Source: an uncultured archaeon (GTDB taxonomy: Archaea; Aenigmatarchaeota; Aenigmatarchaeia; CG10238-14; SCSR01). Taken from it: a stretch of DNA of 40,579 nucleotides. Under the pieces are notes generated by a model. It searched no databases. It saw only the letters and a program-made list of their open reading frames with translations, and was not told the DNA's origin. Of this stretch, positions 1,977 to 37,086 are shown in pieces. Position 1 is the first letter of the stretch; the number at the start of each line of letters is the position of its first letter. The translations under genes and the position numbers were made by a program. Location: assembly GCA_964590365.1 (NCBI GenBank), contig CAZPVR010000001.1, positions 1-40,579 of the forward strand, in the 5' to 3' direction.

Positions 1977-2065
1977 GCCCCCATCGTCTAGTCCGGCCAA
2001 GGATACGAGCCTCTCGAGCTCGGGACGCGGGTTCAAAGGCTAAGCTGAAAATCCCGCTGGGGGCA
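1977..2065 (+). tRNA. tRNA-Glu (anticodon CTC) with a 14-nt intron in the T-loop (position 59/60)
   Basis: Acceptor GCCCCCA/TGGGGGC, D arm GTCT-AGTCCGGCCAA-GGAT, anticodon stem CGAGC/GCTCG with loop CT-CTC-GA, T stem GCGGG/CCCGC. The T-loop is 21 nt instead of 7. Confidence 0.8.
2038..2051 (+). other. non-canonical tRNA intron (BHB motif) in the tRNA-Glu T-loop
   Basis: The outer helix is the T stem. The central 4-bp helix is UUCA (2032..2035) with UGAA (2046..2049). The 3-nt bulges are AAG (2036..2038) and AAU (2050..2052). The inner element is GC-UAA-GC. Cutting after the second nucleotide of each bulge leaves the canonical T-loop UUCAAAU. Confidence 0.7.
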
Positions 2066-2076: not shown

Positions 2077-2235
2077 TTAATGTCGAATGTATAATTCCTC
2101 AGCAATTCCGCATATCCTCGAATATTTTTCCATATCCTCTTTATTTCTAAGAACTCTTTTAACTACTGAACAATAAAGTTCTGTTGGGTTCTCAGGATAT
2201 GGAATGCATGCATTACACTTTTCGCATTCTGGCAT
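2077..2235 (-). CDS. small Cys-rich ORF (52 aa, below the ORF-track cutoff), last ORF of the Ubl cassette
   Basis: My translation is MPECEKCNACIPYPENPTELYCSVVKRVLRNKEDMEKYSRICGIAEELYIRH*. It has an ATG start, begins 15 nt after the stop of the 278-aa ORF, and has a CxxCxxC...C...C pattern. No Shine-Dalgarno sequence seen. Confidence 0.25.
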   Translation of the reverse strand: MPECEKCNACIPYPENPTELYCSVVKRVLRNKEDMEKYSRICGIAEELYIRH

Positions 2236-2250
2236 AAAATTATTTTGTAA

Positions 2251-3087
2251 CTAAAACTTATTTCTTTTTCTCATTTTCCTTAAATAACCTTCTATTTCAT
2301 TCGAAAAAAGGAAAAAGTTTAAAAGGAGTGGCCAGTCGTAAACAAATTCTTCAACAATTTCCCTCGAATTTAAAATTTGTGTAAAAAATTTTAAGTTGTG
2401 ATTTGTGGGATAATAGCTATAAATTTCGATGCTGGCAGTGGGAGGAGAAAAATTAGTTTTAGCAGTAGAATATAAAAGCTTTGCTGAGAAGAAGAGAGAA
2501 TAGTAAGAAAAAAACAATTCGGGCATGATTTTATAAGGTCCTACCAAATCTCTTTTTACTCCAAGCATTAAGTTTATTTCCGAATAATTCTTCCCTTCAG
2601 AACATTCTTTCGAAATTTTATTTACCAATTCTTCCATATCCTTTTCGTTCCAATTTAAAAATTTTTTGAAGTTGTAATCCAATTCATCGCTAGAAAAGGA
2701 TAATCTTAAAGATGAGAGCAAATCTCTTTTGAAAGATTCTTTAATTTGGCTCACATGGAATTTTATTGAACTATCTTTTAATTTTCCTACTAAAAAACCA
2801 AACCATTGACTTGAAGGTTTTATCTCCTCTTTAGGCTTTTTTTCCAAAATTTCTTCCAACGCACTTTCAAAAGATTTATCTTCTTTTAAGGAAGGTTTGA
2901 AGAGCGAAGAAATTTTAATTATATCATTCCCCAAATTTTCTGCATCCCTCTCTCTTTTTCTAACCTCAACGTAGAATTTTCTGCAGAATCCCTTTAAAAC
3001 CTCTCTCTTATCTTCCACAATTAAATTTTGTAAATTAATCTTTTCTAATTTTTTGGAAGAAAATCTTGTTTTTTGAATTCGATTCAT
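2251..3087 (-). CDS. hypothetical protein (278 aa), fifth gene of the Ubl/E2/JAB/E1 cassette
   Basis: ATG start overlapping the E1-like gene by 53 nt. Charged N-terminal half and an aromatic/hydrophobic C-terminal third (FFSYYSLFFSAKLLY...WPLLLNFFLF). No recognisable motif. Confidence 0.6.
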   Translation of the reverse strand: MNRIQKTRFSSKKLEKINLQNLIVEDKREVLKGFCRKFYVEVRKRERDAENLGNDIIKISSLFKPSLKEDKSFESALEEILEKKPKEEIKPSSQWFGFLVGKLKDSSIKFHVSQIKESFKRDLLSSLRLSFSSDELDYNFKKFLNWNEKDMEELVNKISKECSEGKNYSEINLMLGVKRDLVGPYKIMPELFFSYYSLFFSAKLLYSTAKTNFSPPTASIEIYSYYPTNHNLKFFTQILNSREIVEEFVYDWPLLLNFFLFSNEIEGYLRKMRKRNKF

Positions 3088-4375
3088 ACCTTATTATCCC
3101 ATCAAAAGGCTCGCCATATCTTTCATCCAGAATTTTTAAAGTTTCGCTTGCTGAAAGAGCAGATGCTATTATATTAGTTGTTACTATGCTCGGATTCCTT
3201 TCCCATGCGCAGGATGCTCTCTTTACTTTAATAAGCCTACTTATTCCTAAAACTTCGTCCAAATCAGAAGTTTTTCCTGGATAAGTTGTTACAACGCGTG
3301 CAGAATCAAACGTTACACCACTGCTCACATAAGGAATTTTAAATTCAAGCGATTTTTTCAGAATTTCATACCTACTTTCAAAGCTGTCAACCCCTTCAAC
3401 TATGACGTTAGCTTTTTTAATAACAGAATCGTCCAATTCCTCAAATCTTTTCGCATAAGCTTCTATTTTCAACTTCGGATTAATTTTCTCCAGCCTTTCC
3501 TTCCCAACTTCAACTTTTCTTCTTCCAACGCTGCAATAGAAAAGCCATTGTCTGTTTAAATTAGTTGGTTCTATAAAATCAGGGTCCACTATGCTCATTT
3601 CCTTAACTCCTAAACATGCATAAACAGGGCCTTCCCAGCATCCTCCTGTTCCGAATCCTGCCATTAGAATGTTGGAATTCCCCATCCTTGGTTCTTCTGG
3701 AGGATTTTCAAACAGCTGGAATTCAAATTCTTTTTTATCATAAGCCAAATCGTCCTTTAAAGGATTGAAGAATTTTCTTACTTCATCTGCAATTATTCCG
3801 GCAGCAAGCTCAGCAGTTACTATATTTTGTTTTTTATTCTCAAAGTAGCTGAAATCAGGATTGCTATTTGAATGAAAATTGAAAAATATTTTTATTTTAC
3901 TTTTATCACAGCTCGCGCTTATCAAAGGCTTTCTGTTTTTGTTCGAGAATTCTACAATTTTCTCCTTAATTTTCAAATCGTTTGTTGCTTCTACTATTAA
4001 ATCTTCTCCGCCCAAAAAAGTTTCCATTCCTTCATAAAGCCAGTTCACTCCTTTTATGCTTAAATTAGGGTTCATTCTTTTTCCTATTTTTTCCAAGGCT
4101 AAAACTTTTTCCTCTCCTATCCTTGCTTCAAGATAGAAAGGATATTTTACTTTTTCTTCGCCTCTAACCTTCCCATTTCCAAAAATCATTATCCAACCGT
4201 TCTCTCTTTCATGCCCAATTCCCAATCCAGCAAAAGCAGCGAGCAAGAATTGAGAAATATAATCGCACCCTATTAAAGAAATTCTTGCTTTCTTAAGATT
4301 TCTTTGTTTCCAGCCTTTTATTCTTTCCTGCCTATCATAGATGTTTGCCCCATATAGGCATTCTTTCCAGCTCAT
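3035..4375 (-). CDS. E1-like (ThiF/MoeB/UBA-family) activating enzyme with a degenerate N-terminal and an active C-terminal adenylation domain
   Basis: The N-terminal YDRQERIKGWKQRNLKKARISLIGCDYIS..LGIG is an E1-type start with a degenerate G-loop. The second domain has ILMAGFGTGGC (GxGxxG), VDPDFIEPTNLNRQ (DxDxxExxNLNRQ), VGRRKVEV, VEGVDSFESR and a candidate catalytic Cys in KRASCAWERNPSIVTTN. Confidence 0.8.
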   Translation of the reverse strand: MSWKECLYGANIYDRQERIKGWKQRNLKKARISLIGCDYISQFLLAAFAGLGIGHERENGWIMIFGNGKVRGEEKVKYPFYLEARIGEEKVLALEKIGKRMNPNLSIKGVNWLYEGMETFLGGEDLIVEATNDLKIKEKIVEFSNKNRKPLISASCDKSKIKIFFNFHSNSNPDFSYFENKKQNIVTAELAAGIIADEVRKFFNPLKDDLAYDKKEFEFQLFENPPEEPRMGNSNILMAGFGTGGCWEGPVYACLGVKEMSIVDPDFIEPTNLNRQWLFYCSVGRRKVEVGKERLEKINPKLKIEAYAKRFEELDDSVIKKANVIVEGVDSFESRYEILKKSLEFKIPYVSSGVTFDSARVVTTYPGKTSDLDEVLGISRLIKVKRASCAWERNPSIVTTNIIASALSASETLKILDERYGEPFDGIIRYESNSKNKIFFQKIRKD

Positions 4376-5207
4376 TCAACCTCCTTTGAATTCTTGAAGT
4401 GGAGTAAACAATCCTTTCTTCCATATTCCTTCTTAAATCTTCTTCATCAATTTCTTTGCAATCTTCCAAAATTTCCATCCTTACTCTTTTTGCGCTTATG
4501 GGATAAGGCCCGCATCCTGGGCAAACGGGCTGGTATATTACTTCGGAATACCATTCCTTTGCCCTATTCATAATCATATAATAAGCATAATTTATGACCA
4601 AATTCAGCTTTAAATCCATAAAAGCATCCTTAAGCTCATCTTCTAAAAACTCGAACCCAACCATTTTCAATATCCTTTTAATCCTATCAAACCTAGTTCT
4701 TCTTTCAGCAAACCTTAATTCAACTTTTTCTAAGTAGTTTGATGGGATTTTAAGGCTTAATTTTTCCCCATCCTTACTTACTCCCTCAACCTTTCCGCTA
4801 ATAAGGGTTATATAGCAAGATTTCTTCAAAGGGCTGGCGCTTAATATTCTTGCTCTCTCCTTAATTTCCTCGTCTTTTGAAGAAGAAAATGCAGGAAATA
4901 TTCCATGATAATGAAATTCGCCTACAGCATCAAAGCCAAAAAGCTCTAGCTCTTTAGCTTTTACGATCTCTGAAATTGGCCTTAAATCAACTGAAGAATA
5001 TGTTGTTGATTGAAAGGGAAGATAAACATCCGTTATTATATCCTCTTTTTCAGCTTTTGGTTTAATTAAGCAACATCCAAACTCCCTCCCTCCAAAAAAA
5101 TTCTCAGAAATTTCAGCATACTTCACAATTTTTTGTAAAGCACTCTTCCTCATTCTCACAACTTTAAACTCCTTATTAATTATTCTCTCCAATTCCTTCT
5201 CAAACAC
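4335..5207 (-). CDS. JAB/MPN (JAMM) metalloprotease with an extra C-terminal domain of about 150 aa
   Basis: Exact JAMM signature H99-Y-H101-GIFPAFS-S109-SK-D112 (HxHx7Sx2D; nt 4872..4913) with an upstream Glu in GGREFGCC. Overlaps the E2-like gene by 8 nt and the E1-like gene by 41 nt. Confidence 0.8.
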   Translation of the reverse strand: MFEKELERIINKEFKVVRMRKSALQKIVKYAEISENFFGGREFGCCLIKPKAEKEDIITDVYLPFQSTTYSSVDLRPISEIVKAKELELFGFDAVGEFHYHGIFPAFSSSKDEEIKERARILSASPLKKSCYITLISGKVEGVSKDGEKLSLKIPSNYLEKVELRFAERRTRFDRIKRILKMVGFEFLEDELKDAFMDLKLNLVINYAYYMIMNRAKEWYSEVIYQPVCPGCGPYPISAKRVRMEILEDCKEIDEEDLRRNMEERIVYSTSRIQRRLNELERMPIWGKHL

Positions 5208-6384
5208 TTAGCACAACCTTCCTCTTAACGTTAGTTATAGGAATCCTTTCTTTGCTTATTTCCTCAAAACTAAATTTTTTAAATTCTTCATGCGTAATAT
5301 AAGTTCCATGGCTTATAGTAGAAGTTACAAGACCTCTTACCCCATTAATCAGCCAAAGCGCAATGTGCAATCCTCTTACCTTTAAATCAGAATCGTTAGC
5401 AGGAATTTGGCCTGTTTTAATTAAATAATCAACGCCGAAATCCCCAAAACATATTTCTAAATTACCACTCTCCTCCCAAACATGAGGATGCTTATAGGGC
5501 TTCGACATCCTCGGCATGGTATAAGTTAAATCGCTTCTTACCCTTATCTCTATCCTCCCTTTTCCAAAAACATGATAAACTGGTTTTTTATCCTCTTCTG
5601 AGCAAAGCCCGCAGTACAAGGCATATTTTTCAGGAGTTTCTGCATATATTTTGTAAGATTTGGACGATTCTCTTATTATACCCCTTCTCAACTTTTCATG
5701 CATAGCATTAAACTCCTCTATAGCCTTACCCAAGGCCTCGAATTCTGATTTTGGAGATTTTCTAACTTCCTCCAAAACTTGAGAAAAGAAAAACCTTCTT
5801 ATAGCCTTATCATATTCCTTACTCATTTCCTCAAAAGAATTTTCAAATTCTAAGAAGCAATATTTAACACCGTCTATGCTTACATGAATCTGGTCTTCCC
5901 CTATACTACTTTCTTCAAGCTTATAAATTCTTGGCCCTCCTATGTTCAGAAGGGCAAAAACATCCAAATCATAATCTCTATAATCGAGCATCCTTTTCCA
6001 TATGCTTTTTTCTCCCTCTTTCTCTTTTTCTACCTTTCTCCTTTCTTCCCTGAAAGTTGGATATACACCAAAATTAGGTATTACATTATAAACTATGAAC
6101 CTTCTTAATTCCAACTCCTCTTCATCAAATCTACTTAAATTTCCTTTTCCCAAAATTTCCTTAATCTTTTCTTCCTTCCATGCTTTAATATGAGAGGAAT
6201 ACTTTGTTTCATACAGTTTTTCTAAATTGGAAATTGTATCTTGCTTCCTCAAATAATGTGTTTTCTTAAGCCGGATATAGCTTGAAGAAGGTTCTTTAGT
6301 TATTCCAAAAATATCCTCATAACTAACAACTAAGTTTACTCCCCTTCTGGCAAGTTCAAAGAGAAAGTTGGACGGTAATTCCAT
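5200..6384 (-). CDS. E2 (UBC-fold)-like conjugating-enzyme domain fused to an uncharacterised N-terminal region of about 240 aa
   Basis: The C-terminal region reads ...YTMPRMSKPYK-HPH-VWEESGNLEIC-FGDF. This matches the E2 HPN flap followed about 10 residues later by the catalytic Cys (H299-P-H301, C312; nt 5449..5490). It is preceded by beta-meander-like segments (YKIYAET, YALYCGL, VYHVFGKGRIEIRVR). Confidence 0.65.
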   Translation of the reverse strand: MELPSNFLFELARRGVNLVVSYEDIFGITKEPSSSYIRLKKTHYLRKQDTISNLEKLYETKYSSHIKAWKEEKIKEILGKGNLSRFDEEELELRRFIVYNVIPNFGVYPTFREERRKVEKEKEGEKSIWKRMLDYRDYDLDVFALLNIGGPRIYKLEESSIGEDQIHVSIDGVKYCFLEFENSFEEMSKEYDKAIRRFFFSQVLEEVRKSPKSEFEALGKAIEEFNAMHEKLRRGIIRESSKSYKIYAETPEKYALYCGLCSEEDKKPVYHVFGKGRIEIRVRSDLTYTMPRMSKPYKHPHVWEESGNLEICFGDFGVDYLIKTGQIPANDSDLKVRGLHIALWLINGVRGLVTSTISHGTYITHEEFKKFSFEEISKERIPITNVKRKVVLSV

Positions 6385-6387
6385 CCT

Positions 6388-6780
6388 TCACCTCATCTCT
6401 CCTGCAGGCGCTATTAAAACATCTGCATAATAACAAATTCTTTCCTTCCCTTCAATCTCTTTCTTAGCTTTACCTCTTACATAATCGAAAATGTTTTTTC
6501 TTGGATCTATATTATACTTTTCGTTCACAATTATCTGATAATCTCCCGACTCAAGAAGGCTTTCAATTAAATTTGCCACACTCTTTTCCTTAATATCTTT
6601 AACATCCTCTAAGCAAAAATTTATAACATCCTCAACACTCATTCCTTTTGCTTTTTCTGAGTCAATCAGTTTTTTAATCGAATCTTCCCTTCCAAATCTT
6701 TTTAATTCCACGTAAAGAGGTATTCTCTCCTCGAACAATTCTCTCTCTTCTCTTCTTATAGCCCTTGGTAAATATTCCAC
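6388..6780 (-). CDS. small protein (130 aa), first gene of the cassette; candidate ubiquitin-like modifier (function speculative)
   Basis: GTG start; its stop lies 3 nt before the E2-like gene. It occupies the position held by the Ubl in Ubl-E2-JAB-E1 operons. The C-terminus ...CYYADVLIAPAG-EMR has a Gly three residues from the end. No GG terminus. Confidence 0.35.
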   Translation of the reverse strand: MEYLPRAIRREERELFEERIPLYVELKRFGREDSIKKLIDSEKAKGMSVEDVINFCLEDVKDIKEKSVANLIESLLESGDYQIIVNEKYNIDPRKNIFDYVRGKAKKEIEGKERICYYADVLIAPAGEMR

Positions 6781-6816
6781 TTTTTAAATTTGTTCTTCAA
6801 AAAATTAAAATTTTAG

Positions 6817-7911
6817 TCATATTTTCCAGTCCTTTAGCTTGTAATCGGAAAGAATAAAAACTTTTACAAAGGATGTTAAGTAGATTAATGTATTTAATGG
6901 AACGTAGAAGAAAAGGTAAACAAAAAATTCTTTAATATAGAATTCGTACTTAAGCTTCTTAGCTGCCGTGAAGAAAATGATTGAAAGAATAAAGAAAAGT
7001 ACAAAAATTAGAATTGTTTCCCAAATCAAGAGAGTTGGTAAATAAGAAAGGGTGAAATTTGCGCTCAAAAGGTTGGAAATAGAAGATTGGATGAATGTTT
7101 TTTTAACCATGTAGCCAAAAATTATGGAGGAGGAAAGAAGGAAGAAGAAAGCAGGGAGGATAAAAGGGAGAAAAGGGAAAAGCAGCTTAGGGGATTTTAG
7201 AAATGAGTGAACGATCTCTTTAAAATGCTTTTTTAACCAAAGTGCTACTCCAATCCCCCATCTCTCTCTTTGTCTAAACCAATGCTCCCAAGAAGTAGGA
7301 GCTTTATTCCATACCTCTATCTCTTTATCATACTTTAACTTTTTGTTCTCAATAAAAGCTCTTAAGCCAATTTCTAAATCCTCTGCTACAACCCTTCGAA
7401 ACATTCCTAGTTCATAAAAAACTTCTCGCTTTATACCGAAAGCTGGTCCATATACACCAAAACACTTTTTAAATTTCTCTGAGAAAAGCCATTCTACAAA
7501 ATTAAAGCTTATATAATCGTAATTAACTAGTTTAGAGATAAGGGATTCCCTGATTACTCTTTTCTTAATTTCAAGAATATCACAATCCTTTATGCTACTT
7601 GCTACTTTCTTTAAAAAACTTTTATATTTCCTTGGTATCTTTACATCAGAATCCAAAAAAAGTAGAATTTTTCCGCTCGATTTTTCCACTGCCTCATTAA
7701 GCGCTCTGGCCTTCCCCTTTCTTTTTTTATTGAGTATAAACTTTATTTTTCCCTTATATTTCTCAACCAAACCTAAGCTTTTCCTCGTTGGCTCATCTAT
7801 GATAACAAAGATTTCCTTATTCTTATAAGGATCTTCCAACAAGCTTTCGATTATATCATCAAGAAAATCGGATTCTCTGTAGACGGGTACGAAAACGCTA
7901 ATTTTTTCCAT
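6817..7911 (-). CDS. family 2 glycosyltransferase, processive type, with C-terminal transmembrane segments
   Basis: VFVPVYRE, IIDEPT, LFLDSDV (DxD), VVAEDLEIG and QRERW (QxxRW) motifs, followed by several hydrophobic helices. Confidence 0.85.
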   Translation of the reverse strand: MEKISVFVPVYRESDFLDDIIESLLEDPYKNKEIFVIIDEPTRKSLGLVEKYKGKIKFILNKKRKGKARALNEAVEKSSGKILLFLDSDVKIPRKYKSFLKKVASSIKDCDILEIKKRVIRESLISKLVNYDYISFNFVEWLFSEKFKKCFGVYGPAFGIKREVFYELGMFRRVVAEDLEIGLRAFIENKKLKYDKEIEVWNKAPTSWEHWFRQRERWGIGVALWLKKHFKEIVHSFLKSPKLLFPFLPFILPAFFFLLSSSIIFGYMVKKTFIQSSISNLLSANFTLSYLPTLLIWETILIFVLFFILSIIFFTAAKKLKYEFYIKEFFVYLFFYVPLNTLIYLTSFVKVFILSDYKLKDWKI

Positions 7912-7974
7912 AATTTTTATTTTTTCTCTATAGGATAAATTTTAAAACTTGATTGAGAACCTAACTTTAAGTTA

Positions 7975-8049
7975 TGGGGACGCTGGGATTTGAACCCAGG
8001 TCTGAGCCTCCCAAGGGCCCGATCCTAGACCAAGCTAGACGACGTCCCC
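7975..8049 (-). tRNA. tRNA-Pro (anticodon TGG)
   Basis: The reverse complement folds as acceptor GGGGACG/CGTCCCC, D arm GTCT..GGAT, anticodon stem GGGCC/GGCTC with loop CT-TGG-GA, T arm CTGGG-TTCAAAT-CCCAG, discriminator A. Confidence 0.85.
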
Positions 8050-15006: not shown

Positions 15007-15990
15007 TTAAATAAATCCTGAAAATATTGCCTTTATAGCCATTTGCGAAATAAGAAAAACTGCAAAACCAATGGGTATGAATAGAGGCAAATACTTTAAG
15101 CCTGCTTTTTCTGTCCCTTCTTGTACTAAGCCTATTAGCAAGCTACCAAAGAAAGTTGTTGCACCTATTGCTGCAAACGAATACAACCTTAAAAATTCTG
15201 AACTTATTCCAGAAATCCTTATAGTTCCAAGCGGTATTTTTGCTTGCATCTCAGGCATTCTTTCGATTTCCACGCTTCCCCCAAATTTTCCTAAGGTTTC
15301 AACCAAGAATATGGAAACTGAATAGAGTAAAGGTGCACCGATGCAAGCTGCAAAGAATATAAACATCCCGTACATCATAACATAAGATTTAATCTCCCTT
15401 TTCAAAATCCTAACTTGCCTTATATCCAAAGCAATGCTTTCGAGCAAAGCAGTTATGCTACCCCCTTTTTCCAAACCTTCTAAAAGCAAGTAAACAGTTC
15501 TTTCTAAAAGCTTCGACTTTATCCTTTTAGTAATATTTTTTAAAGCCTCTTCCAAAGGCTTTCCGGAAATCGTTTCCTTTGCAGCATTTCTAAGCTCCTT
15601 TTCCAGGGGACCGAATTCAGGCCTTGCTGAAGTCAATATTGCTTTATCATGCGTTAGGCCTGCCCTCATGTTTGAAGAAATTATTAAAAGGGCATCCGGC
15701 AAAATTTCCTCAACGTAATTAGCCCTACTATCTGCTACAAAAACTAAAATTCCATGGAAGATTAGTTGAAGAATTGAAAAAAGTAGGATAAAAGTTAAAA
15801 GGAGGTAGGGTAAGGCAAGCAATTCGAAAAGAAAGAGGAAAAAGGAAATGAAAAGGCTTATTAATATTCCAAAGGTTAGGAATGATGCAAAAAGGTTTTC
15901 TGGCGAAATTTTTAAATCGCAATATGCTACATGAGCCTCAAGCCATTTTTTATAATTTTTTGGAAGTATGGAATACAAAAACTTATACAT
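15007..15990 (-). CDS. T2SSF-domain pilus platform protein (TadC/FlaJ-half-like)
   Basis: Multi-pass membrane protein with a cytoplasmic helical T2SSF-type domain (SNMRAGLTHDKAI...GKPLEEALKNI...LLEGLEKGGSITALLESIA). Confidence 0.75.
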   Translation of the reverse strand: MYKFLYSILPKNYKKWLEAHVAYCDLKISPENLFASFLTFGILISLFISFFLFLFELLALPYLLLTFILLFSILQLIFHGILVFVADSRANYVEEILPDALLIISSNMRAGLTHDKAILTSARPEFGPLEKELRNAAKETISGKPLEEALKNITKRIKSKLLERTVYLLLEGLEKGGSITALLESIALDIRQVRILKREIKSYVMMYGMFIFFAACIGAPLLYSVSIFLVETLGKFGGSVEIERMPEMQAKIPLGTIRISGISSEFLRLYSFAAIGATTFFGSLLIGLVQEGTEKAGLKYLPLFIPIGFAVFLISQMAIKAIFSGFI

Positions 15991-16876
15991 ATATTTCCAC
16001 CGATGGTCTCCTGCTCTTTACTAAACCAAGGAAGTTGAACTTGAAGATTATTATGAAAACTAAGATAAGCCAGAAGAATAACGGCTTTATCTCAAAACCA
16101 GAAAATGATGAAAGGATTATCATCAAAGTTATTCCGAGGCTTGGAATTATTATACCGAACATCATGTAGAGAAATGCTAAGGGATTCAATTGTGAACCAT
16201 ACCTCCTTATCATTACTCTCTGCTCTTCTGCCAGATTTCTAACTATGCTTTCCAAAGTATCTCCTATATCCGCTCCTGTCTTTATTGCATTTGCTATCTG
16301 CCACAAAGTCCTTCGGAAATAGAGAGAAGGATTCTTCCTTCCTATTTCTTCTAGCGCTTCAACATCTTGTACACCAGTAGAAATTTTCCTCACACATTCG
16401 TTGAATTCTTCAGAAACTAAACCATAACCTGCTTTTGAAACGGATACCATTGCATCGAATAAACTTACTCCTGACCTTACCTGAATCAATAAATGCCTTA
16501 TGGCAAAGAGTAAGTTTTTCTCCAAATCTTTTATTCTCCTCATAGAAATTAGCTTTGGGTAGAGAATTATGTAGAAGAAGGAGAGGATGGAAAGAGAAAA
16601 GGAGGAAAGAATTAATATTAACATTAAGCCTTTTGTAGGGAAGGTTAAAAGGGAAAAAAGGCCGAGAAGGGAGAAGAAGAGCAGAAACCAGAAGAGGGAG
16701 GAAAAAAGGGCTATGGCTAAATACTCATTCTCGTCGTAAGGAAAATTCGATTCGAAGAGAGAATCTTTTAAAAAAGGAAAAAATTTTTTAATCCTTAAAG
16801 CAATCCCAAAAAGCCGAAGCTTCTTGGATAACCTTAAACTTTTTTCCAAGCTGAAAGGTACAAAAGGCACTCTCAT
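15983..16876 (-). CDS. T2SSF-domain pilus platform protein (TadB/FlaJ-half-like)
   Basis: IQVRSGVSLFDAMVSVS...STGVQDVEALEEIG...IKTGADIGDTLESI followed by TM helices. Overlaps both neighbours. Confidence 0.75.
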   Translation of the reverse strand: MRVPFVPFSLEKSLRLSKKLRLFGIALRIKKFFPFLKDSLFESNFPYDENEYLAIALFSSLFWFLLFFSLLGLFSLLTFPTKGLMLILILSSFSLSILSFFYIILYPKLISMRRIKDLEKNLLFAIRHLLIQVRSGVSLFDAMVSVSKAGYGLVSEEFNECVRKISTGVQDVEALEEIGRKNPSLYFRRTLWQIANAIKTGADIGDTLESIVRNLAEEQRVMIRRYGSQLNPLAFLYMMFGIIIPSLGITLMIILSSFSGFEIKPLFFWLILVFIIIFKFNFLGLVKSRRPSVEIYV

Positions 16877-18402
16877 ATTCTCAACAATTCTTCCGGAACT
16901 AATGAAGTTGCTTTTGCATTCCTCTTAACCAAATCTAAAACATAGCTCGGGTTTGTATAATACTCTACAACAACCTTTCCCACCCCATCTATAGTCTTTA
17001 TTTTATTCTTTACCATCCACTTCAAAACCTGCTTTTTTTCCTCCAAATCCTGCTTGAATTCTTGGTCTGTCATGCCTGTATGCATCTTCAAATCCTCTAT
17101 TAAACGCATGCTCTTTTCGCTCTCTATTATTTTATCTTGAGCAGGATACCATTTGTACAGTATTCTTATTCCGGTTTTCATGGCTTGCATAGGGCCTGAA
17201 ACTATTTCGGCTAACTGAAAAAGTCTTCTAAAACCCCTTCTCCTATCCCTAAACATAACTGCAATTAAATGTAACGCTTCCAACAAAGTTTCAGGAACGT
17301 TTATAGGAGGGTTTATTAGCCTTTTATAAGTTTGCGCAGCAGTATCTGCATGTAAGGTTGCGTAAACGCTATGGCCAGTATGCATAGCCTCGAACAAAAC
17401 CTCAGCCTGATCCCCTTTTCTTATTTCTCCTACTATTATCCTATCGGGCCTCATTCTCAAACTATTTACAAGCAAATCGAGCATAGAAACTTCCCCCTTT
17501 CCTTCAGGGTTTGGCTCTCTTGTAGTTAAAGGAACCCAATGCAAGAATTTTGGAAGCCAAATTTCCCTCGTATCCTCTATGCTTATTATCCTTTGGTTTG
17601 GAGGAATAAAAGTCATTAAAACATTTAAAAAAGTTGTTTTTCCTGAAGCAGTACCTCCTGAAACTATCATGTTCATTTCGTATTGAATTGCTGACCATAG
17701 CAAGGAAGCAACATCTAAGCTTAAAGTATTGTTTTCTATTAAATCGGTTATTACCCATGGTTTTCTTCTAAAAAGCCTTATGCTTATAGTATTTCCCTTT
17801 GTGCTTATTGGGAAGAGAGTTGCATTAACCCTATCTCCACTTGGCAAGTGAGCATCCATCAAAGGGTTTAAAGTTGTTATCTGCCTTCCAACTTTCCTTC
17901 CTATTATCGATGCATAATTCTGGATTTGGGCTTCGCTTGGAATGAAAACGTTTGTTTTAAGCCATCCGTACTTTTTATGATAAACCCAAACAGGCTCCTC
18001 AGCATTATTCACAACTATATCTTCCAGATTTCCATCAGCGAGCAAAAGCTCCAATTTTCCCAATCCAAGCATTTCATGCACTAAAGTTCCTGCTAAGTAT
18101 TCACAAACTTCAAGCGGAATTCCTACCAACTCTTTCCTTAAAATCTCAAAGGCTTGATCAAAAAATTTAATCTTCAATTCTTCCAAGGCTTTCGGGTTTA
18201 TGAGCTCAGAAGTTTTTATAGAAACTTGAGCCAATAGTTTTTCTCTTATCTGGTCCAGCAAGGCAAGGGTTCCTGCCTCTATTTCAGGAAGCTTTAATAC
18301 GTATAAAGGAACCAACTCTTTTGGAGATGTTTGAATACTTACCTCTCCTCTCACTCTATCGCATTCAACAAAATACTTCTCCAACTCTCTTTCCTCACTC
18401 AA
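16873..18402 (-). CDS. type IV pilus/archaellum-family secretion ATPase (FlaI/PilB/TadA, VirB11-like)
   Basis: Walker A SGGTASGKTTFLN, Asp box ISIEDTREI, Walker B RIIVGEIR, His box GHSVYATLHA. Confidence 0.9.
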   Translation of the reverse strand: MSEERELEKYFVECDRVRGEVSIQTSPKELVPLYVLKLPEIEAGTLALLDQIREKLLAQVSIKTSELINPKALEELKIKFFDQAFEILRKELVGIPLEVCEYLAGTLVHEMLGLGKLELLLADGNLEDIVVNNAEEPVWVYHKKYGWLKTNVFIPSEAQIQNYASIIGRKVGRQITTLNPLMDAHLPSGDRVNATLFPISTKGNTISIRLFRRKPWVITDLIENNTLSLDVASLLWSAIQYEMNMIVSGGTASGKTTFLNVLMTFIPPNQRIISIEDTREIWLPKFLHWVPLTTREPNPEGKGEVSMLDLLVNSLRMRPDRIIVGEIRKGDQAEVLFEAMHTGHSVYATLHADTAAQTYKRLINPPINVPETLLEALHLIAVMFRDRRRGFRRLFQLAEIVSGPMQAMKTGIRILYKWYPAQDKIIESEKSMRLIEDLKMHTGMTDQEFKQDLEEKKQVLKWMVKNKIKTIDGVGKVVVEYYTNPSYVLDLVKRNAKATSLVPEELLRI

Positions 18403-20036: not shown

Positions 20037-21311
20037 TTATGTTTCTTCTAAGATTTCGCTCACTTGATAAATTTCTGCATGGCTTAAATCTCCACAAAGC
20101 TCAGAATCCATCCTCAACTCATAGCCAAAACCTTCTAAGTAAAAGCCTTTTACAGGCTTAGCTGTATGGGAAACTTCTGAAAAGTATAAATGATCTATAT
20201 TACTTTTCTCTCCGCTTATTGGCAAATCCAAACTTTTTAAGTAAACTTTATTTACTAAACTTTCCAAACCTATAACATTTTCGCTTTTGCTTCTATATTT
20301 TTCCTGAACTTCAAGCTTTCCCTCAAGCCTATCCAAAAAGCTTCCTCCTTTATTGCTAGTAATGTAGAAAGAATTCCTTAAATGATCTTTCAAATTTTCT
20401 ATGTACCAAACCTTCCTTTCATTTATTAGCAATTTCGTATTGTTAGGCAATATTTTAGTTGCATTATTTACTCCAGAAACGAAAGGAATGCTGAAATTTT
20501 CCTCGCATTCGCATATTACCCCTCCAAACTTCTGTTCAATTAAGCTTTTTACTCCAGAAACATCATCTATCACTAAGATTATGCTCTTATTTTCGTTTAT
20601 ACTTTCTACATAATCTCTTGAAGTTATTAAGGTTGGGCCATAAAAACTATAGTTTCCATAAGCTCCGGAAGCCAATAAGCTGGTGAAATTTGCAGAATAA
20701 GGACTTTTTGTTATTATGTTCGTTGCCCTTCCAAGAGTATTTAAAGGATAAATTGGATCTTCAAACCCTATTATCGAAATTAAATTCGATTTTTCAACTA
20801 TTTTATTTAAGGAGGCAATTCCATCCTTTTCGGTAATGTTTATCGATAAGTTTGCTTCGAACAACAAATTCCAGCTATCAAAAGGTTTTACTCCATAGCT
20901 CAAAAGAGAAATTTCAACTATAAAACCTCTTTCCATGCTCAGAAGCTTAATTTTCTCTATCCATTCAGGAATTGTAGTGCCCTCGAGCAAAACTTCTTTC
21001 TTACCGAACAAGCTTCCGTTAATAACAAGTTCTTCCAGCCTTTTATCCGCTTCATCCAAGCCAATTCCGTTTGTTATAACATAGCTTATTGCGGAAGAAA
21101 TTGCCCTTGGGAAAGCTATCATTTTAACTTCTTTATCCCAATCTCTCAAAATACTTTTGTAGAGGCTATACATTTCCCTAACTCTTACTTCGGTCCCGAT
21201 TATTTCCCTATGCCTAGAAATAGAAATTGAGTAAAAAATTATTACCGATAAAATCGTTCCTGCCAAAACCATCGTAACTAGTGAAAACATCATTCCTTTC
21301 ATCTTTCCCAC
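20037..21311 (-). CDS. large pilin-like/pilus-associated protein (424 aa)
   Basis: The N-terminus MGKMKG-MMFSLVTMVLAGTILSVIIF is compatible with a class III signal peptide. Overlaps the upstream gene. Confidence 0.5.
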   Translation of the reverse strand: MGKMKGMMFSLVTMVLAGTILSVIIFYSISISRHREIIGTEVRVREMYSLYKSILRDWDKEVKMIAFPRAISSAISYVITNGIGLDEADKRLEELVINGSLFGKKEVLLEGTTIPEWIEKIKLLSMERGFIVEISLLSYGVKPFDSWNLLFEANLSINITEKDGIASLNKIVEKSNLISIIGFEDPIYPLNTLGRATNIITKSPYSANFTSLLASGAYGNYSFYGPTLITSRDYVESINENKSIILVIDDVSGVKSLIEQKFGGVICECEENFSIPFVSGVNNATKILPNNTKLLINERKVWYIENLKDHLRNSFYITSNKGGSFLDRLEGKLEVQEKYRSKSENVIGLESLVNKVYLKSLDLPISGEKSNIDHLYFSEVSHTAKPVKGFYLEGFGYELRMDSELCGDLSHAEIYQVSEILEET

Positions 21312-23251
21312 ACTAATACTTTAAACAATGCTGGCCCCCAAGGATATCTTAAGCCATAAACAGTTTTATTCTCTATTTCTATATCCTCTGCTGAAACCCC
21401 TTCTGCTCCAATTTGCTCTATAAGCCTATTCTTTGCATCCTCTATTGCTAAATCTGAAGAATTGAAAACTTTTCCGTAGCCCACTAAAGCCTTAACTAAA
21501 TAAGTGAACTCGAAAGAGCTATAGTTTAAAATAAGGTTAGTTACGCTTAAAGAGCCTCCTGGCTGAAAATCCAGAACTTTTAAGTAATTTTTTCCAGGAG
21601 AAAATATCTTTGGTTCTATGAAAACTGAAGAAGGGATTGCTCTTACGGCTGGGGATGAAAAAACATCTATCCAATCACAAGTTTCATTCCTTGCAGAAAC
21701 GTTTATCATGCAGCTAAACCCTTGAGCCACGTGAGTAAAAGTTTGAACAAGCCTTGCTTGAGACTGATTCAAAGTAAAATTAAATTCTTTTGGGTTTGAA
21801 TGATTTCCTCCATATATCAATTCCTTCGTTATATCTATTTCTCCATATCCGTAAATTGGATTATCAAGCTCGTAATAAACTTCTACGTAAGAAGAATTGT
21901 CAGGATCGTTTAAAGGATCGGAATAAATCCTACTTTCTTTATCCCCCCAATGCCTATCGCCATAACAGTTAACATAAACGCTAACCACATTAGTTCCATT
22001 TTTTACTTTATCAGTGATGTTTAAATCTATTATTACATCCTTGGTTTCTTTTATCGTACAAGCATATTGATAAGGAAATTTTTTCCACTTGCATGCTGGA
22101 TAGCATTCTTCATCGTTTGAGCAAAACCCATCTTTGAAGTAAGCACCCTTAGAGTTTATATAGATTAAAATGTCGCTTGAATTCCTCCCATATCTATCAA
22201 AAGTATCTTCCACTTCTTTCAAATTCAAATAAAGCCTCGCGCTTACATTCTTTGCATTTTCTGGTATGAAGAAGGAGGCTGTAGCCCAGGAGCCTGTATA
22301 TCCAGAAACATCGTCAAAATAATACCTTTTCTTAAAAGCTCTTTCTCCTTCCCTACTCTCTTGAGTCAAGGAATAAGTCGCAACCAAACGCATTCCTGGA
22401 TGTAGATGGGAATGGTAATTTGGCGTTCCTATTGCAAGATAAATCGTATTATTTCCCGGTTTTATTTCTTTTGTTACATCTACAAACCCATAAGCTGCTG
22501 TTGTTATTTCACTTCCTTGATAGAGCTCTTCTAAGTAATTCCAAACAATATCATTCTCCTTTCGAACACCGTTAACAGAAAGATTTTGGAATTTTGCTTG
22601 TGTTTTGCTAGTACCGAAATGTACTGAGACCCAAAGAGTTGCGTTATAAATTATTGCATCTTGAGGTAAAGCAAATTTTTTTGTTACTTCAAGCCTATTT
22701 GCTGTCCATCCAGAGCCTTCGGGTAAAAATGGTATTATCTCAGTCGTATTTTTTCTTACTTTCCTTGCCCATGCTCTTGAAACATAGCCATAAACAGGCT
22801 TTCCCACTTCATAGCCAGACTCTATCATAGAGCTTATGGCAACGCTTCCCACCATTTCATCGCAAGAAGAATAGATTGTTTGATTCTCAACCTCAAGCCT
22901 TAGGCAGGATGAATTGAAAAACCCTAACATCTCTCTTGAAATATTTTCAGCTATAGAATAATTTCCGCTAAACCAAAAGCTTCCTATCAAATCTATAACA
23001 CTTCTATTCAAATCTTCTTCCTTTATAACCCCTTCCTCAATTAAAATTTTAATAGTTTCGCTTTTTGCTTCATAAACTCTTAGCTCAGCTAGAAGGTTTA
23101 AAGCATCTGCTGCAACATAACCTATTTGCTCATACTTTCTTTCAGGAATTGCGCTTTGGTATTTAAGCAGAATTAACGAAGTTATTAGAAGTATTATTAT
23201 GGATAAGGAAATTATAGCATCCAGGCTAAACACAAAACCTTTCACTCCCAT
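21299..23251 (-). CDS. very large pilin-like surface protein (650 aa), sequon-rich, candidate tip adhesin
   Basis: MGVKG-FVFSLDAIISLSIIILLITSL (KG/FxFSLDA class III signal). I count about 22 N-x-S/T sequons, plus multiple Cys pairs. Confidence 0.6.
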   Translation of the reverse strand: MGVKGFVFSLDAIISLSIIILLITSLILLKYQSAIPERKYEQIGYVAADALNLLAELRVYEAKSETIKILIEEGVIKEEDLNRSVIDLIGSFWFSGNYSIAENISREMLGFFNSSCLRLEVENQTIYSSCDEMVGSVAISSMIESGYEVGKPVYGYVSRAWARKVRKNTTEIIPFLPEGSGWTANRLEVTKKFALPQDAIIYNATLWVSVHFGTSKTQAKFQNLSVNGVRKENDIVWNYLEELYQGSEITTAAYGFVDVTKEIKPGNNTIYLAIGTPNYHSHLHPGMRLVATYSLTQESREGERAFKKRYYFDDVSGYTGSWATASFFIPENAKNVSARLYLNLKEVEDTFDRYGRNSSDILIYINSKGAYFKDGFCSNDEECYPACKWKKFPYQYACTIKETKDVIIDLNITDKVKNGTNVVSVYVNCYGDRHWGDKESRIYSDPLNDPDNSSYVEVYYELDNPIYGYGEIDITKELIYGGNHSNPKEFNFTLNQSQARLVQTFTHVAQGFSCMINVSARNETCDWIDVFSSPAVRAIPSSVFIEPKIFSPGKNYLKVLDFQPGGSLSVTNLILNYSSFEFTYLVKALVGYGKVFNSSDLAIEDAKNRLIEQIGAEGVSAEDIEIENKTVYGLRYPWGPALFKVLVWER

Positions 23252-23724: not shown

Positions 23725-24082
23725 TCTTTATAACATTCTTTCCTTTTTTTATTTCACCATTTATGCTTTCAGCCAAAGTAGAGCAAGAAGCAAACTTATC
23801 ATCAAACCTTACAATAACTGAATAGTTTTTGATTTCTACTGAATAATCTATTCCGCCAAAGAGCTTTTCTTCCAAAGAAAAATCTCTTTCGTAACCATCC
23901 CCAATTTTAATCGCTCTGTTGATTTCTGAGCTTACTTTCTTGCAAACCTCCATGGCACTCGAATAAACCCTTTCCTCAAAAACGTTAGTCTGAAAAGTTC
24001 CTGAAGTAAGGAATGTTACGGTTGCTACTAAAATTAGTACGGAAAGCAGAATTAAAAATTCCAAGCTTACTTGCCCTTTCAT
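23696..24082 (-). CDS. pilin-like protein (class III signal peptide)
   Basis: MKGQ-VSLEFLILLSVLILVATV. Confidence 0.7.
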   Translation of the reverse strand: MKGQVSLEFLILLSVLILVATVTFLTSGTFQTNVFEERVYSSAMEVCKKVSSEINRAIKIGDGYERDFSLEEKLFGGIDYSVEIKNYSVIVRFDDKFASCSTLAESINGEIKKGKNVIKNENGEIYVE

Positions 24083-37085: not shown

Positions 37086-37086
37086 G

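What the first reader, a model, noticed from the sequence alone, without database searches (positions are those of the whole stretch)
2077..6780. Ubl-E2-JAB-E1 conjugation cassette (Bil-like / eukaryote-like) in an archaeal genome
Consecutive minus-strand genes are tightly coupled: a 3-nt gap, then overlaps of 8, 41 and 53 nt. They encode, in order: a 130-aa protein; a 394-aa protein whose C-terminus has an E2-type HPx flap plus Cys (KHPHVWEESGNLEICF); a JAMM protease with a perfect HxHx7Sx2D; an E1 with GxGxxG and DxDxxExxNLNRQ; then a 278-aa unknown and a 52-aa Cys-rich ORF. The order small protein / E2 / JAB / E1 matches bacterial Bil (ISG15-like) anti-phage operons. The component set is that of a full ubiquitin-type conjugation and deconjugation cycle. 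The known archaeal SAMP/UbaA system has no E2, and E2-containing systems in archaea are described mainly from Caldiarchaeum and Asgard lineages. This cassette has a large extra domain on the E2, an extra domain on the JAB and two unassigned partners, and I cannot map it onto a described type. There is no CD-NTase (so not CBASS) and no MoaE/ThiG-type sulfur-transfer partner. The function (defence, pilus/surface-protein modification, or host interaction) is open.
Basis: partly seen in the sequence, partly recalled or inferred. Interest (0 to 1): 0.9.

Follow-up and report, generated by a model that had tools for sequence, protein, structure and literature searches.

The report
Rare archaeal ubiquitin-like conjugation operon
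A tiny symbiotic-type archaeon carries a compact operon that looks like a complete ubiquitin-style protein-tagging machine (tag, activating enzyme, carrier enzyme, trimming protease and a fifth unknown partner). Its carrier enzyme belongs to a very rare, previously unannotated family found almost only in a few other archaea.

Summary
The six minus-strand genes are real. Orthologous cassettes occur in three other Aenigmarchaeota genomes, and the same gene order occurs in distant relatives from Woesearchaeota and 'Euryarchaeota SM23-78'.

- **E1 (446 aa):** secure. It is a single chain with a degenerate N-terminal and an active C-terminal adenylation domain, and Cys389 sits at the MoeB Cys187 position.
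- **JAB (290 aa):** secure. It has a complete JAMM site.
- **E2-like (394 aa):** moderately supported. It founds a very rare family (about 25 clusters among 1.84 billion representatives) with no Pfam, NCBIfam, PADLOC or PDB sequence match. Its core has UBC-like topology in a confident AlphaFold model. It aligns to eukaryotic E2s with HPx on HPN and Cys312 on the catalytic Cys (hhalign P=0.003, 0 of 40 shuffles as good). Foldseek is not significant. Its N-terminal extension is an internal duplication.
- **Small protein (130 aa):** circumstantial. It has no detectable β-grasp similarity. All 12 family members share a C-terminal strand followed by Gly/Gly-Gly and a 0–19-residue tail, as in precursors trimmed by a JAB.
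- **Fifth gene (about 250 aa):** always follows E1.

This is most likely a Bil-like Ubl–E2–DUB–E1 cascade of a distinct archaeal type. Its biological role is unknown. One correction: the 53-nt overlap is probably a start-codon artefact.

The parts
6388..6780 (-). Gene 1: 130-aa small protein, the putative ubiquitin-like modifier precursor. Invariant Gly127 (codon 6400-6402) is followed by a 3-residue tail, EMR.
   Evidence: ORF. Orthologues end PAGELR or GGELRS. Distant operon partners end ...GG plus 0-19 residues. No β-grasp similarity was detectable by sequence or profile, so the fold is untested.
5200..6384 (-). Gene 2: 394-aa E2-like protein.
- Repeat 1: residues 1-75 (6160-6384).
- Repeat 2: residues 130-205 (5770-5997).
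- UBC-like core: about residues 229-394 (5203-5700).
- His299-Pro300-His301: 5482-5490.
- Putative catalytic Cys312: 5449-5451.
   Evidence: Close homologues and the distant family. AlphaFold model at pLDDT 83.8. hhalign vs E2s gives P=0.003 with HP and Cys in register, with controls. Internal duplication at hhalign probability 96%. Foldseek's best compact hit is Ube2W, which is not significant.
4335..5207 (-). Gene 3: 290-aa JAB/JAMM metalloprotease. The catalytic domain is about residues 1-140 (4788-5207). Site residues are E42 and H99/H101/S109/D112 (4872-4913). A roughly 150-aa C-terminal extension carries CPxCG.
   Evidence: Motif. Catalytic residues are invariant across orthologues and a 26%-identical relative. 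The profile hits PDB 2kks at 1.6e-4, followed by weak, non-significant hits (E 0.24-1.1) to Rpn11, JAMM1 and AMSH. The L008 partner matches Prok-JAB at 4.4e-8. PADLOC JAB E=0.02.
3035..4375 (-). Gene 4: 446-aa E1. The inactive adenylation domain is about residues 1-211 (3743-4375). The active adenylation domain is residues 212-446 (3038-3742). Catalytic Cys389 (3209-3211) lies in a short crossover loop. There is no CYS domain, no UFD and no rhodanese domain.
   Evidence: Pfam ThiF at 9e-47 with two stretches. PADLOC E1 models hit both halves. The best PDB hit is the Uba1 active adenylation domain at 1.4e-11, followed by MoeB and MccB.
2251..3018 (-). Gene 5: conserved partner of unknown fold. 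It is 255 aa from the GTG at 3018; the longest ORF would run to 3087 and give 278 aa. A gene of about 250-300 aa always follows the E1 gene in this operon family.
2077..2235 (-). Gene 6: 52-aa Cys-rich mini-protein with a conserved CxxC...C...C pattern, probably zinc-binding. It is specific to the Aenigmarchaeota version.
   Evidence: Present in L001 and in L012 without a canonical start codon. Absent from L013 and from the distant operons.
6781..6816 (-). 36-nt A/T-rich spacer upstream of gene 1. It holds a TATA-like element (TTTTAATTTTTT, about 6799-6810) roughly 19-30 nt before the GTG. This may be an archaeal promoter for a leaderless operon transcript.
   Evidence: Read directly from the sequence. 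L001 has TTTAAATA at the same distance. This is inference only; no archaeal promoter tool was available.

Best explanation
The cassette encodes a self-contained ubiquitin-like protein-conjugation pathway of the Bil type, carried by a DPANN archaeon.

Proposed mechanism (the steps are inferred; the catalytic equipment is shown):
1. The 130-aa protein is made as a precursor. The JAB/JAMM protease removes the three residues after the invariant Gly127.
2. The E1 is a single-chain pseudo-dimer of a dead and a live adenylation domain. It adenylates the exposed glycine and takes it as a thioester on Cys389 in its short crossover loop.
3. The modifier passes to Cys312 of the E2-like protein. This cysteine sits 13 residues after a His-Pro-His flap in a UBC-like core.
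4. The E2 conjugates the modifier to lysines of target proteins. It may act directly, or with help from its duplicated N-terminal module, the conserved fifth protein and, in this lineage, the 52-aa Cys4 protein. These may act as adaptor/E3 or be the target.
5. The JAB can also reverse the modification.

The biological role is not established. I rate a conflict or antiviral role (as for Bil) and a regulatory or protein-turnover role (a ClpX-like ATPase is linked in two distant versions) as about equally likely.
For: - E1: ThiF at 9e-47. The C-terminal half keeps GxGxxG, DxD, NLNRQ, the Mg-binding Asp and a Cys aligned with MoeB Cys187, while the N-terminal half has lost all of these. The same IAD+AAD layout is the hallmark of BilD and eukaryotic E1s.
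- JAB: the complete E...HxHx7Sx2D site is conserved down to 26% identity. There is one significant PDB profile hit (2kks, 1.6e-4; Rpn11, JAMM1 and AMSH follow only at E 0.24-1.1) and a Pfam hit on a distant partner.
- E2-like: H299, P300 and C312 are conserved in at least 90% of a 23-member family alignment. The AlphaFold model (pLDDT 83.8) has helix, four-strand meander, HPx loop, Cys and a long crossover helix in UBC order. hhalign against 11 eukaryotic E2s scores 25.4 (P=0.003) with HP on HP and Cys on Cys. Controls: 10.3 for the reversed alignment, at most 14.9 in 40 column shuffles, and 12.5-15.9 for unrelated profiles. The best compact Foldseek hit is the E2 Ube2W.
- Modifier: all 12 small proteins that sit immediately upstream of the E2-like gene end in a hydrophobic strand, then 2-4 residues, then G or GG, then a tail of 0-19 residues. 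One ends exactly in GG. Bil Ubls likewise carry up to nine residues after the conserved Gly, which the JAB removes.
- Operon: the order small/E2-like/JAB/E1/about-250-aa recurs in seven sequence-distinct loci in addition to the window: L001 (refetched as L014), L012, L013, L015, L020, L021, L022. It also recurs on L017/L018/L019, three contigs carrying the identical E2-like protein P0013. The order equals the published Bil order Ubl-E2-DUB-E1.
Against: - The small protein shows no detectable similarity to ubiquitin, SUMO, ThiS, MoaD or SAMPs (hhalign P of about 0.3) or to any Pfam or PDB entry.
- Foldseek found no significant match for the E2-like model. The E2 hit has E=0.87 and TM 0.35.
- In the window's clade the modifier ends in Ala-Gly rather than Gly-Gly.
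- The Asn of the canonical HPN is replaced by His, Phe or Tyr.
- There is no biochemical evidence, and no target is identified.
- Nothing in the neighbourhood indicates a role. The window is archaeal housekeeping genes.
Confidence: 0.68

Rival explanations
1. The E1, E2-like and JAB proteins are a conjugation machine, but the 130-aa protein is not the modifier. It would be, for example, a winged-helix regulator of the operon. The moiety transferred would be another protein's C-terminus, as in CBASS, where Cap2 conjugates the CD-NTase.
For: There is a weak PADLOC match of the window protein to the AbiEi N-terminal (wHTH) region, E=0.0026, and a weak Mnd1 HTH hit in two members. No β-grasp signal was found.
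Against: Only 1 of 9 family members gives the AbiEi hit. The fifth protein and the 52-aa protein do not end in or near a conserved glycine. The small protein is the only operon product with a conserved C-terminal Gly/Gly-Gly and a variable tail.
Confidence: 0.12
2. It is a sulfur-carrier or biosynthetic system of the CysO/Mec+ or QbsCDE kind. In those systems a small carrier with a C-terminal tail is trimmed by a JAMM protease, adenylated by a MoeB-like E1 and thiocarboxylated, with no protein conjugation.
For: The E1 scores well against the ThiF and MoeB NCBIfam models (1e-31 to 1e-28, all far below their cut-offs) and against MoeB and MccB in the PDB. JAMM-trimmed sulfur carriers are established biology (own knowledge).
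Against: - All NCBIfam equivalog scores are far below threshold.
- The E1 has no rhodanese domain and has an inactive second adenylation domain, which is typical of conjugating E1s.
- An E2-like protein with a conserved HPx...Cys is always present.
- No MoaE, ThiG, CysM or other biosynthetic gene was seen among the scanned window ORFs (about 128 aa or more) or in the Pfam domain lists of the related operons.
Confidence: 0.08
3. It is a degenerate or non-catalytic remnant. The E2-like protein would be only a scaffold, and its Cys and His residues would be structural, for example metal ligands together with Cys258/Cys261.
For: The window clade has an extra CxxC (C258, C261) near the core. Foldseek is not significant. 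The Asn of HPN is missing.
Against: The CxxC is absent from the wider family, whereas H299, P300 and C312 are conserved in at least 90% of members. All E1 and JAB catalytic residues are intact across lineages that share only 20-30% identity. This argues for selection on catalysis.
Confidence: 0.05

Closest known systems
Bacterial BilABCD operons (Type I, and Type II = CEHH/6C), as described in Chambers et al. preprint PMC10557695
   Same: - The gene order is identical: Ubl, E2, JAB DUB, E1.
[quoted passage not shown]
- The modifier carries residues after the conserved glycine, which the JAB removes.
- There is no recognisable E3.
   Different: - The E1 here lacks the roughly 80-aa helical CYS domain. 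Its Cys sits in a MoeB-length crossover loop.
- The E2 has HPx upstream of the Cys, as in canonical E2s, not the C...E.H....H (CEHH) pattern.
- The E2 carries a duplicated 75-aa N-terminal module.
- A fifth gene is always present.
- All instances that carry an organism name from their source are archaeal (mostly DPANN); most of the distant metagenomic contigs are unnamed.
- No sequence-family link was detectable. No Bil-named chain appeared among E1 PDB hits at E<1e-3 or among E2-profile PDB hits at E<10.
Caldiarchaeum subterraneum / Asgard Ub-E1-E2-RING-Rpn11 clusters
   Same: An archaeal operon with an E1, an E2 with a catalytic Cys, and a JAMM protease.
   Different: According to the literature, those have a ubiquitin about 31% identical to human Ub, E2s structurally homologous to eukaryotic E2s, and a RING E3. 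Here the small protein, the E2-like protein and the fifth protein match no Pfam model, and there is no RING.
Archaeal SAMP / UbaA / HvJAMM1 sampylation
   Same: A Gly-Gly-terminated small modifier, a ThiF-type E1 and a JAMM isopeptidase.
   Different: That system has no E2 and its E1 has a single domain. NCBIfam SAMPActivE1UbaA scores 56.5 bits against a cut-off of 450. Dispersed, non-operonic genes in that system are from my own knowledge.
Bub (6E/DUF6527) operons and CBASS Cap2/Cap3
   Same: Prokaryotic E1/E2/peptidase conjugation systems.
   Different: Bub uses Tyr/Ser oxyesters, fused proteins and a DUF6527 protease. Cap2 is an E1-E2 fusion that conjugates a CD-NTase. Here E1 and E2 are separate, both have Cys, and there is no DUF6527 or CD-NTase.
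Human UBE2W-type E2 (own knowledge of its HPH motif)
   Same: HPHV-aromatic...ICxxxx around the catalytic Cys. It is the best compact Foldseek hit (8a58_A).
   Different: The structural match is only weak (TM 0.35), and sequence identity is about 15%.

Membership tests
E1 / ThiF superfamily (PF00899) | Rossmann-type adenylation domain with GxGxxG, an Arg finger (NLxRQ) and a Mg-binding Asp; score above the Pfam gathering threshold | tested here: met
   159.7 bits against a cut-off of 28.1. Motifs mapped against MoeB.
Canonical-type (conjugating) E1 | Inactive plus active adenylation domains forming a pseudo-dimer in one chain or a heterodimer | tested here: met
   Two ThiF stretches. The N-terminal half lacks GxGxxG, DxD, NLxRQ and the Asp.
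Canonical-type (conjugating) E1 | Separate catalytic-cysteine (CYS) domain inserted in the crossover loop, and a C-terminal ubiquitin-fold domain | tested here: not met
   The crossover loop is about 26 aa, the same as in MoeB, with Cys389 aligned to MoeB Cys187. The protein ends right after the adenylation domain.
JAB/JAMM (MPN+) metalloprotease | E...HxHx7Sx2D zinc site on an MPN fold | tested here: met
   E42, H99, H101, S109 and D112 are invariant. The profile hits PDB JAB 2kks at 1.6e-4, and Rpn11/JAMM1/AMSH only weakly at E 0.24-1.1. The distant partner passes Prok-JAB. The window protein alone is below the Pfam threshold.
UBC/E2 superfamily | UBC fold: N-terminal helix, four-strand antiparallel sheet, active-site loop, long crossover helix | tested here: inconclusive
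   The AlphaFold topology agrees and hhalign gives P=0.003, above all controls. However, Foldseek E=0.87 and TM 0.35 to Ube2W, and there is no Pfam UQ_con or Prok-E2 hit for any of 23 members.
UBC/E2 superfamily | Catalytic Cys about 8-13 residues after an HPN-type flap | tested here: met
   H299, P300 and C312 are conserved in at least 90% of the family. The third flap residue is H, F or Y, not N.
Ubiquitin-like (β-grasp) modifier | β-grasp fold | tested here: inconclusive
   There is no profile similarity to Ub, SUMO, ThiS, MoaD or SAMP, Pfam or PDB.
Ubiquitin-like (β-grasp) modifier | Exposed or exposable C-terminal Gly/Gly-Gly after the last strand | tested here: met
   Twelve of 12 operon-linked small proteins have it. 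Tails are 0-19 aa.
BilABCD (Type I/II) | Gene order Ubl-E2-JAB-E1 | tested here: met
BilABCD (Type I/II) | Sequence homology of the four proteins to Bil families; CEHH motif in the Type II E2; IAD-AAD-CYS E1 | tested here: not met
   There are no Bil-type hits in PADLOC, NCBIfam or PDB for the E2 or Ubl, and the E1 hits only generic models. The motif is HPx...C, not CEHH. There is no CYS domain.
BilABCD (Type I/II) | Anti-phage activity through Ubl conjugation to a virion protein | not testable with these tools
   This needs experiment. No defence genes are adjacent in the window.
MoeB/ThiF/MoeZ sulfur-transfer systems | Equivalog-level similarity, homodimeric single-domain E1 (with or without rhodanese), and a partner MoaE, ThiG or CysM | tested here: not met
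   All NCBIfam equivalog scores are far below cut-off. The E1 has two domains. No partner genes were found.

The most novel reading that the evidence does not exclude
This would be an undescribed, archaeal (largely DPANN) family of complete ubiquitination-like systems with an obligatory fifth subunit.

- Its E2 keeps the canonical 'HPx...Cys' active site.
- Its E1 is a single-chain IAD-AAD pseudo-dimer that still uses a MoeB-style crossover-loop cysteine. This architecture is intermediate between sulfur-carrier E1s and canonical eukaryotic or Bil E1s.
- The fifth protein (and, in other lineages, a ClpX-like unfoldase) would act as specificity factor and effector.

Together this would be a prokaryotic tag-and-process pathway, independent of Bil, Bub, CBASS and the Caldiarchaeum/Asgard systems.
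Probability: 0.4. Interest if true: 0.85.

Novelty: new variant of a known kind. Interest (0 to 1): 0.72.

Why it matters
Complete E1-E2-DUB-Ubl pathways outside eukaryotes are known from a handful of bacterial defence operon families (Bil, Bub, CBASS-Cap2) and from Caldiarchaeum and Asgard archaea. They are central to the debate on where ubiquitination arose.

This cassette adds a sequence-distinct family. It is found in genome-reduced DPANN archaea, and its E1 architecture could represent an intermediate step: the pseudo-dimer has already formed but the catalytic Cys domain has not yet been acquired. Its E2 family is invisible to current profile libraries.

It gives a compact five-gene system with named catalytic residues that could be reconstituted directly. 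It also raises the question of what a host-dependent archaeon with a minimal genome tags, whether viral, host or its own proteins.

Tried and rejected
- **AlphaFold with only the five close homologues** gave pLDDT 41 and was unusable. The 23-sequence alignment was needed.
- **Foldseek of the full-length model** against the PDB and BFVD gave no significant match.
- **BFVD's top hits** were uncharacterised phage proteins of 400-540 aa (probability 0.5-0.7). However, tblastn of two family members against 50,697 phage genomes found nothing, so a phage origin was not supported.
- **The word-indexed search with the family profile** returned almost only close relatives.
- **Back-translated pattern scans with the diverse alignment** failed.
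- **hhalign of the small protein** against Ub/SUMO and ThiS/MoaD/SAMP sets gave nothing.
- **The AbiEi/wHTH lead** was not reproduced in other family members.
- **The fifth proteins** of the Aenigmarchaeota/L015 type and of the L017/L021/L022 type show no detectable homology. 'Conserved fifth gene' therefore rests on position and size across subtypes.
- **The upstream GT2 glycosyltransferase** is not part of the system. It is absent in L001 and unrelated to the upstream gene of L013.
- **Literature searches** for this system in DPANN, Aenigmarchaeota or Woesearchaeota found no description. The library is incomplete, so this is not proof of novelty.

Full report
**1. The observation**

The window carries six consecutive minus-strand ORFs at exactly the stated coordinates: 130, 394, 290, 446, 278 and 52 aa. 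The spacings are also as stated: a 3-nt gap, then overlaps of 8, 41 and 53 nt.

All quoted motifs and residue numbers are correct:
- E2-like: H299-P-H301 and C312.
- JAB: H99/H101/S109/D112.
- E1: G240FGTGG, D264PDFIEPTNLNRQ and C389.

The genes are not chance ORFs. The window has 34% G+C. The same genes occur in the same order at 45-66% identity in other MAGs named Aenigmarchaeota/Aenigmatarchaeota.

One detail needs correction. The fifth gene almost certainly starts at the GTG at 3018 (255 aa), as in all orthologues and in a 99%-identical product called on another contig. That leaves a 16-nt spacer after the E1 stop instead of a 53-nt overlap.

**2. The host and the neighbourhood**

The window is an archaeal chromosome segment. 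It holds TBP, an MCM with an intein, RFC small and large subunits, RPA-like and aIF2-beta genes, AspRS/AsnRS, diphthamide synthase, a type IV pilus-like locus, and Ku plus DNA ligase. Among the ORFs scanned (about 128 aa or more) there is no CD-NTase, MoaE, ThiG, ThiS or proteasome gene.

The cassette lies between tRNA genes. Two tRNA-Pro genes are upstream. A tRNA-Glu(CUC) that ARAGORN missed lies 12 nt downstream.

The GT2 glycosyltransferase directly upstream is not part of the system, because it is missing in L001.

An A/T-rich TATA-like element lies about 19-30 nt before the start codon of gene 1, here and in L001. This suggests an own promoter and a leaderless transcript, but it is inference only.

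**3. E1**

The 446-aa protein matches Pfam ThiF at 9e-47 with two stretches. PADLOC E1 models also hit both halves.

- The C-terminal half keeps GxGxxG, DxD, NLNRQ, the Mg-binding Asp, and a Cys (C389) at the position of MoeB Cys187.
- The N-terminal half has lost all of these.

This is a single-chain inactive-plus-active adenylation pseudo-dimer. That is the layout reported as the hallmark of BilD and eukaryotic canonical E1s.

Unlike those, it has no CYS-domain insertion: the crossover loop is about 26 aa, as in MoeB. It also has no ubiquitin-fold domain and no rhodanese domain.

By sequence, its nearest solved relatives are the active adenylation domain of Uba1 (1.4e-11), then MoeB and MccB. 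No chain named Bil appears at E<1e-3. All NCBIfam equivalog scores for ThiF, MoeB and UbaA are far below their cut-offs. It is therefore not a plain sulfur-transfer E1.

**4. JAB**

The window protein alone is below the Pfam threshold (PADLOC JAB E=0.02). The evidence comes from the wider set:
- The full JAMM site (E42, H99, H101, S109, D112) is invariant among orthologues and in a 26%-identical operon partner from L008.
- That partner passes Prok-JAB at 4.4e-8.
- The family profile hits the PDB JAB protein 2kks at 1.6e-4. Rpn11, JAMM1 and AMSH follow only as weak, non-significant hits (E 0.24-1.1).

The roughly 150-aa C-terminal extension has no match.

**5. The E2-like protein**

It has only five close homologues among 5.8 billion clusters. 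An exhaustive HMMER scan of 1.84 billion representatives with their profile found 25 proteins at E of 1e-3 or better.

None of 23 aligned members hits any Pfam family, including UQ_con and Prok-E2. The profile finds nothing relevant in the PDB by sequence.

The family alignment shows a conserved C-terminal domain with the pattern 'P-x-V-[IM]-x(2-3)-Y-x-H-P-[FHY]-x(7-10)-I-C-x-G' and a terminal 'LPITN' motif. H299, P300 and C312 are conserved in at least 90% of members.

Structure:
- With the 23-sequence alignment, AlphaFold gives a confident model (mean pLDDT 83.8).
- The order of elements in residues about 211-354 is that of a UBC fold: helix, four-strand meander, HPx loop, Cys, short helices, long crossover helix.
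- Foldseek with the whole 394-aa model finds nothing significant. The best compact hit is the E2 Ube2W, at E 0.87 and TM 0.35 over 135 columns.

Profile-profile comparison:
hhalign scores 25.4 (P=0.003).
- The alignment puts helix 1, the strands, HP on HP, Cys312 on the catalytic Cys, and the crossover helix in register.
- Controls score lower: 10.3 for the reversed alignment, at most 14.9 (mean 11.3) for 40 column shuffles, and 12.5-15.9 for three unrelated profiles.

I conclude that a divergent UBC-like catalytic core is likely but not proven.

The N-terminal 205 residues are an internal duplication. Residues 1-75 match residues 130-205 at hhalign probability 96% (P=1.4e-9). Each copy is a small β-unit followed by a long helix. 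Its function is unknown. Standing in for the missing E1 UFD, or recognising targets, are guesses.

**6. The small protein**

No similarity to Ub, NEDD8, SUMO, ThiS, MoaD or SAMPs was detectable. The same holds for Pfam and the PDB.

The circumstantial case is nevertheless consistent. In all twelve loci where the gene upstream of the E2-like gene could be read, it encodes a 123-166-aa protein. Its last hydrophobic strand is followed by 2-4 residues, then Gly or Gly-Gly, then a variable tail:

| Locus | C-terminus (cleavage site marked) |
|---|---|
| window and close relatives | PAG\|EMR or PAG\|ELR |
| L013 | GG\|ELRS |
| L015 | GTGG\| + 19 aa |
| L020 | GKGG\| + 18 aa |
| L017 | EGG\|LKLYM |
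| L022 | EGG\| + 8 aa |
| L021 | YG\|LCY |
| L010 | VGG\| (end of protein) |

Bil Ubls behave the same way. They carry up to nine residues after the conserved Gly, which the JAB removes.

A weak AbiEi (wHTH) hit of the window protein is not shared by the other eight members tested.

**7. The operon family**

The order small / E2-like / JAB / E1 / about-250-300-aa protein recurs in three groups:
- Aenigmarchaeota: window, L001 (refetched as L014), L012, L013.
- A related type with a duplicated fifth gene: L015, L020.
- A more distant type with long JAB proteins (642-950 aa). Two of its three instances also have a ClpX-like AAA+ ATPase after the fifth gene: L017/L018/L019 (identical E2-like protein, named by its source 'Euryarchaeota archaeon SM23-78') and L021 ('Candidatus Woesearchaeota archaeon'). 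L022 lacks the ATPase.

Fragments with the same beginning occur in L008 and L010.

The fifth protein is homologous between the first two types. It has no detectable similarity to that of the third type. It has no Pfam match and is equally rare.

The 52-aa CxxC...C...C protein is confined to the Aenigmarchaeota version, in three of four loci.

All named sources are archaeal. No match was found in 50,697 phage genomes.

**8. Mechanism**

The catalytic equipment is shown. The steps are inferred by analogy with Bil and eukaryotic pathways.
1. The JAB trims the precursor after Gly127.
2. The E1 adenylates the glycine and forms a thioester at Cys389.
3. The modifier is transferred to Cys312 of the E2-like protein.
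4. It is conjugated to lysines of unknown targets. The fifth protein, the E2's duplicated module and the Cys4 mini-protein are candidate adaptors or targets.
5. The JAB can reverse the modification.

Role: a patchy, rare distribution and the analogy with Bil favour a conflict or antiviral role. The housekeeping context here and the ClpX-like ATPase in distant versions favour regulation or turnover. I cannot decide between them.

**9. Comparison with what is known**

The system works like BilABCD: same order, IAD-AAD E1, tail-trimmed modifier and no E3. It fails membership of that family on three counts:
- There is no detectable sequence relationship.
- The E2 has HPx...Cys rather than CEHH.
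- The E1 has no CYS domain.

It also has a fifth core gene and is archaeal.

It differs from other systems as follows:
- Caldiarchaeum/Asgard clusters: no Ub-like sequence, no UQ_con-detectable E2 and no RING.
- SAMP/UbaA: that system has no E2.
- Bub: oxyester chemistry, fused proteins and DUF6527.
- CBASS Cap2/Cap3: an E1-E2 fusion with a CD-NTase.

Literature searches found no description of this family. The library is incomplete.

**10. Verdict**

It is a new variant of a known kind of system. E1 and JAB are secure, the E2 assignment is moderately supported, and the Ubl assignment is circumstantial. Interest is high for specialists in ubiquitin evolution and prokaryotic conjugation systems, tempered by the untested Ubl fold and the unknown function.

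Noticed in passing
window 1977-2065 (+): This is a tRNA gene that ARAGORN missed. Rfam tRNA scores 46.2 bits, and the anticodon loop reads CUCUCGA, so it is probably tRNA-Glu(CUC). A roughly 15-nt insertion sits in the T-loop region, which suggests a non-canonical intron. It lies only 12 nt downstream of the 52-aa gene, so the cassette is bracketed by tRNA genes.
   Followed up: partly
window 25633-28749 (-): This is a 1038-aa MCM helicase interrupted by an intein that carries a LAGLIDADG homing-endonuclease domain (Pfam MCM, Intein_splicing, LAGLIDADG_3).
   Followed up: no
window 35318-37872 (-): A Ku70/80-like protein (261 aa) and a short ATP-dependent DNA ligase (318 aa) lie close together, separated by a DUF72 gene. 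This looks like an NHEJ-type pair in a small archaeal genome.
   Followed up: no
window 15007-18402 (-) and 23242-24480 (-): This is a type IV pilus/archaellum-like locus with a T2SSE ATPase and two T2SSF membrane proteins. It also has small proteins, at least one with a class III signal peptide. Nearby large ORFs at 20037-23251 (424 and 650 aa) have no Pfam match.
   Followed up: no
window 6817-7911 (-): A GT2 glycosyltransferase sits between the two tRNA-Pro genes and the cassette. It is absent at the equivalent place in L001, where DUF87, tRNA-like sequence and the cassette are contiguous. It therefore looks like a local insertion, not an operon member.
   Followed up: partly
L017 14307-15911; L021 15580-17043: In two distant versions of the operon, a ClpX-like AAA+ ATPase (AAA_2 plus ClpB_D2-small) directly follows the fifth gene. 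In L017 it is followed by two paralogous proteins of about 310 aa with SH3-like repeats, and two Ser/Thr kinases lie upstream. This hints at a link between tagging and unfolding or signalling.
   Followed up: no
L008 638-2695 and 3012-3470: Another distant version lies next to a 685-aa protein with a vWA domain and an HExxH-like motif, and next to a GNAT acetyltransferase. This context differs from the archaeal chromosomal one.
   Followed up: no
window 3035-4375 vs L015 2615-3976 / L017 12141-13541: The Aenigmarchaeota E1s have lost both CxxC-type zinc-site motifs of the adenylation domain (they read TSDLDE instead). The distant E1s keep them (TACLDC or TSCMDC, plus a C-terminal CxC).
   Followed up: partly
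window 7972-8049 (-): The tRNA-Pro(UGG) region gives a sub-threshold Rfam tmRNA match (30.6 bits against a gathering score of 47). This is almost certainly a clan artefact of the tRNA-like domain.
   Followed up: no
window 5449-5490 and family alignment A3: The E2-like family ends in a strongly conserved '[IL]P[IV]TN' motif about 10 residues from the C-terminus. In the window clade there is also an extra CxxC (C258, C261) inside the β-sheet region. Neither has an explanation.
   Followed up: no
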